From NCBI RefSeq assembly GCF_056746865.1, contig NZ_CM163382.1: a stretch of DNA of 64,000 nt; one strand, written 5' to 3'. A model generated the notes under the pieces. It searched no databases. It saw nothing but the letters and a program-made list of their open reading frames with translations, and was not told where the DNA came from. This document shows positions 62,974 through 64,000 of this stretch, piece after piece. Made by a program: the position numbers and the translations under genes. Each line of letters begins with the position of its first letter. Position 1 is the first letter of the stretch.

Positions 62974-63138
62974 ATGGAATTTCACGAAAACAGAGCTAAA
63001 GCGCCGTTTATCGGCTTGGTGCAACTCTGGCAGGCGGTGAGGCGTTGGCGGCGGCAAATGCAGACCCGACGCGTGTTACAGCAGATGAGTGATGAGCGGT
63101 TGAAGGATATCGGGTTACGCAGGGAGGATGTGGAGTGA
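62974..63138 (+). CDS. yjiS: DUF1127 small protein YjiS (54 aa)
   Basis: ATG at 62974 preceded by GAGGAGG; translation MEFHENRAKAPFIGLVQLWQAVRRWRRQMQTRRVLQQMSDERLKDIGLRREDVE; below the 60-aa cutoff of the supplied ORF track. Confidence 0.8.
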   Translation: MEFHENRAKAPFIGLVQLWQAVRRWRRQMQTRRVLQQMSDERLKDIGLRREDVE

Positions 63139-63588
63139 GGGGGGATATAGATTTATATATAATAAAACGTTTTTATGTTTTTAAATTAAGTTATAAAAAT
63201 TTTCCCGAGACAATTCATCAATAGGTATGGAGTGTACAGGAATATCTTCTTCACTAACCTCTTTAAACTCATGTCGATAACGGTCAAAAAACGCACAGTG
63301 ATTACTTGTGTTTTTTGACTGACTTTACAACTCTCATTATTCGCTATTGTGCAGTTTCTCTAATTGTTTTATACCCTGGAAAGTTAAATGTCAGCTACTG
63401 AATACTTTTTGATTGTTTGAGATTTATTTTCATTTGAAATTATAAAATCAGGTGATAAATGAGTTGTGATTAATAGATGGTTGATATCATTTTTATCTAA
63501 AATTGATTTATAGTATCGACCTGAAAAAATAGTTGTTGCCGCCTGAGTAACTATACAATATTCTGAAAGGTTTTCTTTCAAATTAGAA

Positions 63589-64000
63589 ATGTTGTGGGGT
63601 TTTGTTTTTGTATCTTTTATCTCTAAGGAGCTTGCTTTGGGTCAATCAGAATACATTTCATGGGTAAAATGTACTTCCTGGCTAAGTAACTTTGTGAATC
63701 TTAGAGGGTTGAGACAACCGGATGGCCGTCCTCTTTATGAATATCATGCAACCAATGATGAATATACCCAATTAACGCAGCTACTCCGTGCAGTCGGTCA
63801 ATCACAATCTAATATATGTAATAGGGACTTTGCTGCCTGTTTTGTTCTTTTTTGCTCTGAGTGGTACCGCAGGGATTATGAACGGCAATGCGGATGGACG
63901 TGGGACCCTATATATAAAAAAATAGGGATTTCATTCACCGCCACAGAGCTTGGTACTATCGTACCGAAAGGGATGGAAGATTACTGGCTGCGCCCAATTC
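63589..64000 (+). CDS. yjiT: YjiT-like protein, N-terminal part (continues beyond the window); start is either ATG 63589 or TTG 63637 (strong AAGGAG RBS)
   Basis: Frame is open from 63547 to the window end (..GQSEYISWVKCTSWLSNFVNLRGLRQPDGRPLYEYHATNDEYTQLTQLLRAVGQ..). Confidence 0.6.
   Translation, partial: MLWGFVFVSFISKELALGQSEYISWVKCTSWLSNFVNLRGLRQPDGRPLYEYHATNDEYTQLTQLLRAVGQSQSNICNRDFAACFVLFCSEWYRRDYERQCGWTWDPIYKKIGISFTATELGTIVPKGMEDYWLRPI

What the first reader, a model, noticed from the sequence alone, without database searches (positions are those of the whole stretch)
62974..64000. Small DUF1127 gene yjiS missed by the ORF track, and an ambiguous yjiT start
Seen in sequence: a 54-aa ORF with a strong GAGGAGG RBS and a basic, helical product (..WQAVRRWRRQMQTRRVLQQMSDERLKDIGLRREDVE) falls below the 60-aa cutoff of the supplied track. 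Downstream, yjiT can start at ATG 63589 (weak RBS) or TTG 63637 (AAGGAG at optimal spacing). Established knowledge: DUF1127 proteins are small, widespread proteins of unclear function.
Basis: partly seen in the sequence, partly recalled or inferred. Interest (0 to 1): 0.3.

Follow-up and report, generated by a model that had tools for sequence, protein, structure and literature searches.

The report
Known yjiS gene; yjiT starts at TTG
The small gene is the already annotated and partly characterised E. coli gene yjiS, and the neighbouring gene yjiT (the DruH component of a Druantia type III anti-phage system) begins at the TTG codon, not the upstream ATG, so the finding is correct but ordinary.

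Summary
Both observations are in the sequence as described. The 54-aa ORF (62974..63138, +) with a GAGGAGG ribosome-binding site is E. coli yjiS. It matches Pfam DUF1127 at E=3.8e-14 and is annotated at these coordinates in RefSeq. Its function is no longer wholly unclear: 2025 papers report that E. coli YjiS binds the sensor kinase PhoR and restrains phosphate-uptake genes, and that Salmonella YjiS is translated, membrane-associated and affects virulence.

The yjiT start is TTG 63637.
- RefSeq (K-12 and PGAP) uses TTG.
- Two E. coli strains carry ATA in place of ATG 63589 and have no other upstream in-frame start. One of them has an intact 1096-aa gene.
- The Salmonella Typhi orthologue keeps AAGGAGCTTGCT-TTG but has a stop five codons upstream.
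- Serratia uses GTG at the same position.
- All 12 homologues aligned across that region begin within four residues of that point.

It opens the variable "immigration control region", whose boundary lies at the yjiS stop codon.

Verdict: already known, low interest.

The parts
61385..62797 (-). yjiR, a GntR/MocR-type regulator fused to an aminotransferase domain, divergently transcribed from yjiS (context)
   Evidence: 470-aa ORF; annotated yjiR in RefSeq at the matching position
62798..62973 (.). yjiR-yjiS divergent intergenic region. It holds a direct repeat (62829-62845 and 62853-62869) and TACAGA/TCTGTA inverted motifs. It presumably contains both promoters.
   Evidence: Repeats; mean column identity 99% across 7 E. 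coli alleles; no strict sigma-70 consensus match
62961..62967 (+). Shine-Dalgarno sequence GAGGAGG of yjiS, 6 nt before the ATG
   Evidence: invariant in 7 alleles
62974..63138 (+). yjiS coding sequence, 54 aa, DUF1127 small protein
   Evidence: Pfam PF06568 E=3.8e-14; RefSeq annotation at identical coordinates; protein identical to K-12 YjiS, with one synonymous difference at 63016; conservation and pN/pS
63138..63144 (.). Junction between the conserved core genome and the variable immigration control region
   Evidence: 33 of 40 records sampled across the ranking, out of 3739 matching genomes, stop matching at query positions 439-445 of 62700-63700, which is window 63138-63144. Only 625 genomes cover at least 80% of the query. 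The literature places the ICR between yjiS and yjiA (PMC3874165, PMC2481252).
63139..63636 (+). AT-rich (29.5% GC) spacer that travels with yjiT/druH and presumably contains its promoter and leader. The last 41 nt (63596-63636) are invariant in 6 E. coli alleles.
   Evidence: GC content; co-occurrence with yjiT in 631 genomes; alignment A2
63589..63591 (+). Upstream in-frame ATG, rejected as the yjiT start
   Evidence: ATA in strains 67-1 and SWHEFF_58 and GTG in MS1170; no Shine-Dalgarno sequence; the extension is absent from every homologue aligned there
63625..63630 (+). Shine-Dalgarno sequence AAGGAG of yjiT/druH, 6 nt before the TTG
   Evidence: conserved in E. coli, S. Typhi and Cronobacter
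63637..64000 (+). 5' part (121 codons) of yjiT = druH, cut by the window end. The gene is 1096 aa in the strain that is 100% identical to the window's last 7201 nt.
   Evidence: NCBIfam NF038336 YjiT_fam, 152.5 bits against a cutoff of 150; PADLOC DruH3 PDLC00049 aligns 1-1096 to 1-1099 of 1100; RefSeq start at this TTG; window identity to FDAARGOS_497
63384..63581 (-). 65-aa minus-strand ORF in the AT-rich spacer, annotated 'hypothetical protein' in some RefSeq genomes; probably not a gene

Best explanation
The interval holds two known genes that sit on either side of a genome-plasticity boundary. (1) yjiS (62974..63138) is the last conserved gene before the immigration control region. It encodes a 54-aa, arginine-rich, largely helical DUF1127 protein translated from ATG 62974 behind a strong GAGGAGG site. 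By published experiment on E. coli YjiS, whose K-12 protein sequence is identical to the one here, it binds the sensor kinase PhoR and restrains the Pho regulon (pstS and phosphate uptake). The proposed, still unproven, mechanism is that the basic helix docks on the acidic cytoplasmic linker of PhoR and favours its phosphatase state. (2) yjiT (from 63637) is druH, the first gene of a two-gene Druantia type III anti-phage system (druH-druE). This system is one of the alternative cassettes that fill the immigration control region. Its translation starts at TTG 63637, 6 nt after AAGGAG. ATG 63589 is a chance in-frame triplet in the T-rich leader. Shown here: gene identities, coordinates, start codons, family membership, the boundary position and conservation. 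Taken from the literature: PhoR binding, and the Druantia III mechanism (DruE as an ssDNA-triggered 3'-to-5' helicase effector, DruH as the likely sensor). Inferred: that the conserved non-ATG start keeps DruH translation low.
For: yjiS: the Pfam DUF1127 match is above threshold. RefSeq annotates it at identical coordinates in K-12 and in PGAP genomes. The N-terminus MEFHE is invariant and 54 aa is the modal length across Escherichia, Citrobacter and Klebsiella. All 11 E. coli alleles examined are intact, with pN/pS of 0.16-0.48. In this allele the only upstream in-frame ATG (62959) runs straight into TAG. Function: PMC12501420 reports that a yjiS mutant has raised pstS transcript and faster phosphate uptake, and reports a YjiS-PhoR interaction by two-hybrid assay and Far-Western blot. 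PMC11707872 reports ribosome profiling and western-blot detection in Salmonella. yjiT start: RefSeq uses the TTG in MG1655 and in six PGAP genomes. E. coli SWHEFF_58 (intact 1096-aa gene) and 67-1 have ATA TTC in place of ATG TTG, with no in-frame ATG, GTG or TTG before the upstream stop. The S. Typhi orthologue keeps CAAGGAGCTTGCT-TTG with an in-frame stop 5 codons upstream. Serratia odorifera uses GTG at the same position, with a stop 12 codons upstream and no start codon between. Cronobacter has AAGGAGCTTACT-TTG. Of 14 homologues (35-99% identity), all 12 that extend across the region begin within four residues of alignment column 17, which is the TTG. PADLOC DruH3 aligns from profile position 1 to residue 1 of the TTG-start protein. 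Residue 12 of the solved DruH structure 9tud_A aligns with residue 14. The initiation region is not structured (z = +1.26). DruH identity: (DruH3 with E-value 0, and DruE3 as the next gene), and bioRxiv 10.64898/2026.05.12.724681, which assigns DruH to the YjiT family of the ICR.
Against: There are no direct translation-initiation data (Ribo-RET or N-terminal peptide) for yjiT in E. coli, so a minor extended isoform from ATG 63589 in strains that carry it is not excluded. Cronobacter also has an in-frame ATG 13 codons upstream. Homologue N-termini and the PADLOC and NCBIfam profiles come from gene callers, so they are partly circular. The stop-codon and ATA evidence does not share that weakness. 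The window ends at 64000, so the integrity of druH and the presence of druE are inferred from a strain identical over only the last 7.2 kb. The anti-phage activity of this particular ICR-borne allele has not been tested; the published E. coli systems are on a different island. The YjiS-PhoR interaction rests on one paper, worked in only one two-hybrid orientation, and the Salmonella study points to other partners (SsrA/B). The main text does not name the E. coli strain used.
Confidence: 0.93

Rival explanations
1. yjiT translation starts at ATG 63589, giving a protein with a 16-residue hydrophobic N-terminal extension (MLWGFVFVSFISKELA), for example a membrane anchor or signal-like peptide.
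For: ATG is the canonical start. It is in frame with no intervening stop, and it is retained in 3 of 6 aligned E. coli alleles and is GTG in one more. The extension is hydrophobic (GRAVY 1.39). Cronobacter also has an in-frame ATG, 13 codons upstream.
Against: No Shine-Dalgarno sequence precedes it. It is ATA in two strains, one with an intact gene, and those strains have no alternative start. The three substitutions in its first two codons are all non-synonymous or destroy the start. S. Typhi and Serratia have stops in the equivalent stretch. No homologue, profile or solved structure carries the extension. The hydrophobicity is what translating T-rich DNA gives.
Confidence: 0.04
2. Both starts are used in strains that carry ATG 63589, producing a major TTG isoform and a minor extended isoform.
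For: Nothing in the sequence forbids leaky initiation at an unstructured AUG, and the frame is open.
Against: There is no SD, the ATG is not conserved, and a strain lacking the ATG carries an intact gene.
Confidence: 0.06
3. The 54-aa ORF is a chance ORF or non-coding leader and not a protein gene.
For: It is short, and many ORFs of similar size occur by chance in the same 2.5 kb.
Against: Pfam E=3.8e-14; 163 homologues with conserved length; purifying selection and an excess of third-position variation; a strong SD; published ribosome profiling, western blot and mutant phenotypes.
Confidence: 0.01

Closest known systems
E. coli K-12 YjiS (b4341) and Salmonella Typhimurium YjiS; Pfam DUF1127 (PF06568)
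   Same: The protein sequence is identical to K-12 YjiS, with one synonymous nucleotide difference. It has the same 54-aa length, the same arginine-rich stretch and DIGL motif, and the same position next to yjiR.
   Different: Nothing of substance. The window's allele belongs to the minority yjiS haplotype linked to the yjiT cassette: 611 genomes at 95% identity or more, against 3076 at 90-95%.
Agrobacterium SDP1-3 and Rhodobacter CcaF1 (other small DUF1127 proteins)
   Same: They share the DUF1127 domain, and E. coli YjiS complements the Agrobacterium triple mutant for pstS regulation (PMC12501420).
   Different: Sequence similarity to SDP1 is only about 24% ('homology' in the paper's wording). 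CcaF1 binds RNA, whereas Salmonella YjiS pull-downs gave no evidence of RNA association (PMC11707872).
DruH of Druantia type III (PADLOC DruH3; NCBIfam NF038336 STY4851/ECs_5259 / YjiT family; PDB 9tud_A)
   Same: There is an end-to-end match to PADLOC PDLC00049, and the next gene is DruE3. The family name itself derives from this E. coli gene. The N-terminus is in register with the solved DruH structure.
   Different: The experimentally studied E. coli systems (ATCC8739, EDL933) sit on another island between Zorya II and ARMADA II. This copy sits in the immigration control region directly after yjiS. In K-12 the gene is truncated to 505 aa and followed by the yjiV pseudogene. The solved DruH matches detectably only over residues 14-258.

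Membership tests
DUF1127 (Pfam PF06568) | Sequence match to the family profile above the curated gathering score | tested here: met
   52.6 bits against a cutoff of 23.3, E=3.8e-14, residues 18-54 covering profile positions 1-37 of 37
DUF1127 (Pfam PF06568) | Small protein with an arginine-rich segment and a conserved DIGL motif near the C-terminus | tested here: met
   54 aa, 10 Arg, RRWRRQMQTRR followed by KDIGL at 44-48. D45, G47 and L48 are invariant in 26 orthologues. The motif is named in PMC11707872.
DUF1127 (Pfam PF06568) | Binds the sensor kinase PhoR and restrains the Pho regulon (function reported for the family in 2025) | not testable with these tools
   Reported for E. coli YjiS in PMC12501420. 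The K-12 protein sequence is identical to this one, but the strain used is not named in the main text.
YjiT / DruH (NCBIfam NF038336; PADLOC DruH3) | Sequence match to the family profile above the curated cutoff | tested here: met
   The 137-aa translation from ATG 63589 to the window end (the last 121 aa are YjiT) scores 152.5 bits against a cutoff of 150. The full-length protein from the identical locus scores 1828 bits over PDLC00049 positions 1-1099 of 1100.
Druantia type III system | druH immediately followed by a large druE helicase gene | tested here: met
   In FDAARGOS_497, identical to the window over its last 7201 nt, a 6345-nt DEAD/DEAH helicase gene starts 13 nt after yjiT and matches DruE3 with an E-value of 0. 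This lies beyond the window end, so it is inferred for the window's own genome.
Druantia type III system | Confers resistance to phage infection and requires both genes | not testable with these tools
   Shown for other E. coli Druantia III-A systems (bioRxiv 10.64898/2026.05.13.724758), but not for this ICR allele.

The most novel reading that the evidence does not exclude
The non-ATG start of druH is a selected feature and not an accident. TTG (E. coli, Salmonella Typhi, Cronobacter) or GTG (Serratia) is kept at the same position behind a strong, conserved AAGGAG site, while everything further upstream diverges. In E. coli a 41-nt leader (63596-63636) is invariant although the rest of the spacer varies by 2-4%. 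This could be a translational throttle or regulatory leader that sets a low DruH:DruE ratio for a potentially self-harming nuclease or sensor.
Probability: 0.25. Interest if true: 0.2.

Novelty: already known. Interest (0 to 1): 0.08.

Why it matters
It matters little for discovery. Both genes are annotated, the start used by RefSeq is the one the evidence supports, and functional papers exist for both products. There are three practical points. ORF tracks with a 60-aa floor hide real, functionally studied small proteins such as YjiS. The statement that DUF1127 has 'unclear function' needs updating to include PhoR binding. And 'yjiT' should be read as druH, the first gene of a Druantia III defence cassette that begins immediately after the yjiS stop codon, which is useful when mapping defence islands in E. 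coli.

Tried and rejected
- Rfam scan of 62000-64000 at E up to 1 gave only three sub-threshold snoRNA-like chance hits and no known RNA element.
- The promoter and terminator consensus scan of 62700-63700 found nothing, so yjiS has no recognisable intrinsic terminator and neither promoter is located. Folding the yjiS 3' region gave z = -0.33.
- Folding the druH initiation region, to look for a structure hiding the SD or the TTG, showed it is less structured than shuffles (z = +1.26).
- The PADLOC scan of YjiS gave no defence-family match, so nothing links yjiS to the neighbouring defence cassette beyond position.
- The search of solved structures for YjiS found no meaningful relative.
- The local Pfam copy gave no domain for full-length YjiT. 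Newer Pfam families (YjiT_N PF27201, YjiT_2nd PF27205) appear only in precomputed annotations.
- I considered a longer YjiS starting at ATG 62959. It is excluded in this allele by TAG at 62968-62970, although that codon is CAG in six other alleles.

Full report
**What is at the coordinates.** A 54-aa ORF runs from ATG 62974 to TGA 63136-63138 on the + strand and encodes MEFHENRAKAPFIGLVQLWQAVRRWRRQMQTRRVLQQMSDERLKDIGLRREDVE. GAGGAGG sits at 62961-62967, 6 nt before the ATG. Downstream lies a 498-nt AT-rich stretch (29.5% GC). After it, an ORF that runs off the window end can begin at ATG 63589 or, 16 codons later, at in-frame TTG 63637. The TTG is preceded by AAGGAG at 63625-63630.

**Identity of the region.** The region is E. 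coli yjiR(-) / yjiS(+) / yjiT(+). The last 7201 nt of the window are 100% identical to strain FDAARGOS_497 and differ from K-12 MG1655 at 7 of 8778 positions. RefSeq annotates yjiS at exactly 62974..63138 in both genomes. In both, it starts yjiT at the position equivalent to TTG 63637. Five further PGAP genomes with diverged alleles do the same.

**yjiS is a real gene.**
- A 54-aa ORF alone is unremarkable, because 34 ORFs of 20 aa or more overlap 61500-64000.
- The product matches Pfam DUF1127 over the whole profile (E=3.8e-14, 52.6 bits against a cutoff of 23.3).
- It has 163 database homologues.
- In 26 orthologues from Escherichia, Citrobacter and Klebsiella (65-96% identity), the length is 54 aa and the N-terminal MEFHE is invariant, which fixes the start codon.
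- Eleven E. coli alleles are all intact. They show 25 variable sites distributed 7/4/14 over codon positions, and pN/pS of 0.16-0.48 against the window allele.
- In this allele the only other in-frame ATG (62959) is followed by AGG AGG TAG, so no longer form is possible. Six other alleles have CAG instead of TAG.
- The protein is basic (pI 11.1, 10 Arg).
- AlphaFold2 predicts a single helix over residues 11-47 at modest confidence (mean pLDDT 68).

**What YjiS does.** The statement that DUF1127 proteins are of unclear function is out of date.
- Remme et al. 2025 (PMC12501420) report that an E. coli yjiS mutant has raised pstS transcript and takes up phosphate faster. They also report that YjiS complements the Agrobacterium triple DUF1127 mutant and interacts with PhoR in a two-hybrid assay (one orientation only) and by Far-Western blot.
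- Their model is that the basic small protein binds the acidic cytoplasmic linker of PhoR and favours the phosphatase state through PhoU. The authors call this a hypothesis.
- Venturini et al. 2025 (PMC11707872) show that Salmonella YjiS is translated (ribosome profiling and western blot) under SPI-2-inducing conditions. They also show that it associates with the inner membrane, pulls down SsrA/B and delays escape from macrophages.
- The window's YjiS protein is identical to K-12 YjiS. The main text of the E. coli paper does not name the strain used.

**The yjiT start is TTG 63637.** Four independent lines agree.
1. Within E. coli, strains 67-1 and SWHEFF_58 have ATA TTC where the window has ATG TTG. 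They have no in-frame ATG, GTG or TTG between the upstream stop and the TTG, yet SWHEFF_58 carries an intact 3291-nt gene. MS1170 has GTG at that position. Every substitution in those two codons changes the amino acid or destroys the start, while 63596-63760 is invariant.
2. Across genera, Salmonella Typhi keeps CAAGGAGCTTGCT-TTG but has an in-frame stop five codons upstream. Cronobacter keeps AAGGAGCTTACT-TTG. Serratia odorifera has GAGAGG-N6-GTG at the homologous codon, with a stop 12 codons upstream and no start codon between. More distant homologues start with ATG or GTG at the same alignment position, mostly with stops just upstream.
3. Of 14 homologues of 35-99% identity, all 12 that extend across the region begin within four residues of alignment column 17, which is the TTG. 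None carries the 16-residue extension. The other two begin further downstream, and the Serratia one is a mis-called start.
4. The PADLOC DruH3 profile aligns positions 1-1099 of 1100 to residues 1-1096 of the TTG-start protein. Residue 12 of the solved DruH chain 9tud_A aligns with residue 14.

ATG 63589 has no Shine-Dalgarno sequence, and its hydrophobic 'peptide' is what translation of T-rich DNA gives. The initiation region is unstructured. I put TTG at about 0.93. A minor extended isoform in ATG-bearing strains cannot be excluded without initiation profiling.

**What yjiT is.**
- The 137-aa translation from ATG 63589 to the window end (the last 121 aa are YjiT) passes the NCBIfam YjiT_fam cutoff (152.5 bits against 150).
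- The full 1096-aa protein of the identical strain matches PADLOC DruH3 end to end.
- The next gene, a 6345-nt DEAD/DEAH helicase gene that starts 13 nt later, matches DruE3.
- Together these define Druantia type III. A 2026 preprint explicitly assigns DruH to the YjiT family of the immigration control region and proposes it as the infection sensor, with dimer-dependent nuclease activity.
- Another preprint shows that E. coli Druantia III-A needs both genes, and that DruE is an ssDNA-triggered 3'-to-5' helicase. Those tested systems lie on a different island, so the activity of this ICR-borne allele is inferred.
- In K-12 the system is decayed: yjiT is truncated to 505 aa and followed by the yjiV pseudogene.

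**The boundary inside the finding.** 3739 of 5426 complete E. coli genomes match the yjiR-yjiS side. In 33 of 40 records sampled across the ranking, the match stops at window 63138-63144, which is the yjiS stop codon. Only about 625-631 genomes continue into the spacer and yjiT. In O157:H7 the sequence after yjiS is a DUF262/GmrSD cassette instead. Other genomes have a methylase, a penicillin acylase remnant or other genes there. This matches the published definition of the immigration control region as the variable cassette between yjiS and yjiA (PMC3874165, PMC2481252).

**Verdict.** Nothing here is new. yjiS is an annotated, partly characterised small protein, and the yjiT start 'ambiguity' resolves to the annotated TTG. 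The only mildly open point is whether the non-ATG start, conserved across four enterobacterial genera, and the invariant 41-nt leader reflect selected low translation of DruH.

Noticed in passing
window 63138-63144: The conserved core genome ends exactly at the yjiS stop codon. In 33 of 40 records sampled from 3739 matching E. coli genomes, homology stops here, and different restriction or defence cassettes follow (DUF262/GmrSD in O157, a methylase or other genes elsewhere).
   Followed up: partly
window 62974-63138; L017:1513-1593: yjiS is not universal in E. coli. It is full-length in 3736 of 5426 complete genomes. In several hundred the match covers only the 3' half; the one I examined holds a 26-aa 3' remnant annotated 'hypothetical protein' next to a DUF262 cassette. 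About 1270 genomes show no match. Nucleotide diversity among intact alleles is high (pS up to 0.24), and the allele linked to yjiT is a distinct minority haplotype.
   Followed up: partly
window 62959-62973: In this allele the in-frame ATG 62959 is followed by AGG AGG TAG. Six other E. coli alleles have CAG instead of TAG, which opens a possible 59-aa form (MRRQQMEFHE...). That probably explains the 58-59-aa database entries. The ATG overlaps the SD, so this form is unlikely to be used.
   Followed up: partly
window 62816-62922: The yjiR-yjiS intergenic region carries a direct repeat, AAAAACCGGTACAGATG / AAAACCGGATGCAGATG (62829-62845 and 62853-62869), flanked by inverted ACCATACAGA / TCTGTATTGT motifs. 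These are essentially invariant in 7 alleles. They are a candidate operator for the MocR-type regulator YjiR, which would make yjiS a YjiR target.
   Followed up: no
window 63596-63636: The 41 nt before the druH TTG are invariant in six E. coli alleles, although the rest of the spacer differs by 2-4%. The last 12-27 nt are also recognisable in Salmonella Typhi and Cronobacter. TTG or GTG starts are kept in four enterobacterial genera.
   Followed up: partly
window 63384-63581 (- strand): A 65-aa ORF in the AT-rich spacer is annotated as a hypothetical protein (WP_001309194.1) in some RefSeq genomes but not in most. It is probably an over-call.
   Followed up: no
window 60221-61141 (+ strand): rpnD (Rpn-family recombination-promoting nuclease) is intact here, with CAG at 60530-60532. 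K-12 MG1655 has TAG at that codon and annotates a pseudogene.
   Followed up: yes
NZ_AP021946.1 (hit H1/H26), equivalent to window 63139-64000: One strain has an IS1A insertion that splits the region matching window 63139-64000 (spacer and start of yjiT). This is another sign that the region tolerates disruption.
   Followed up: no
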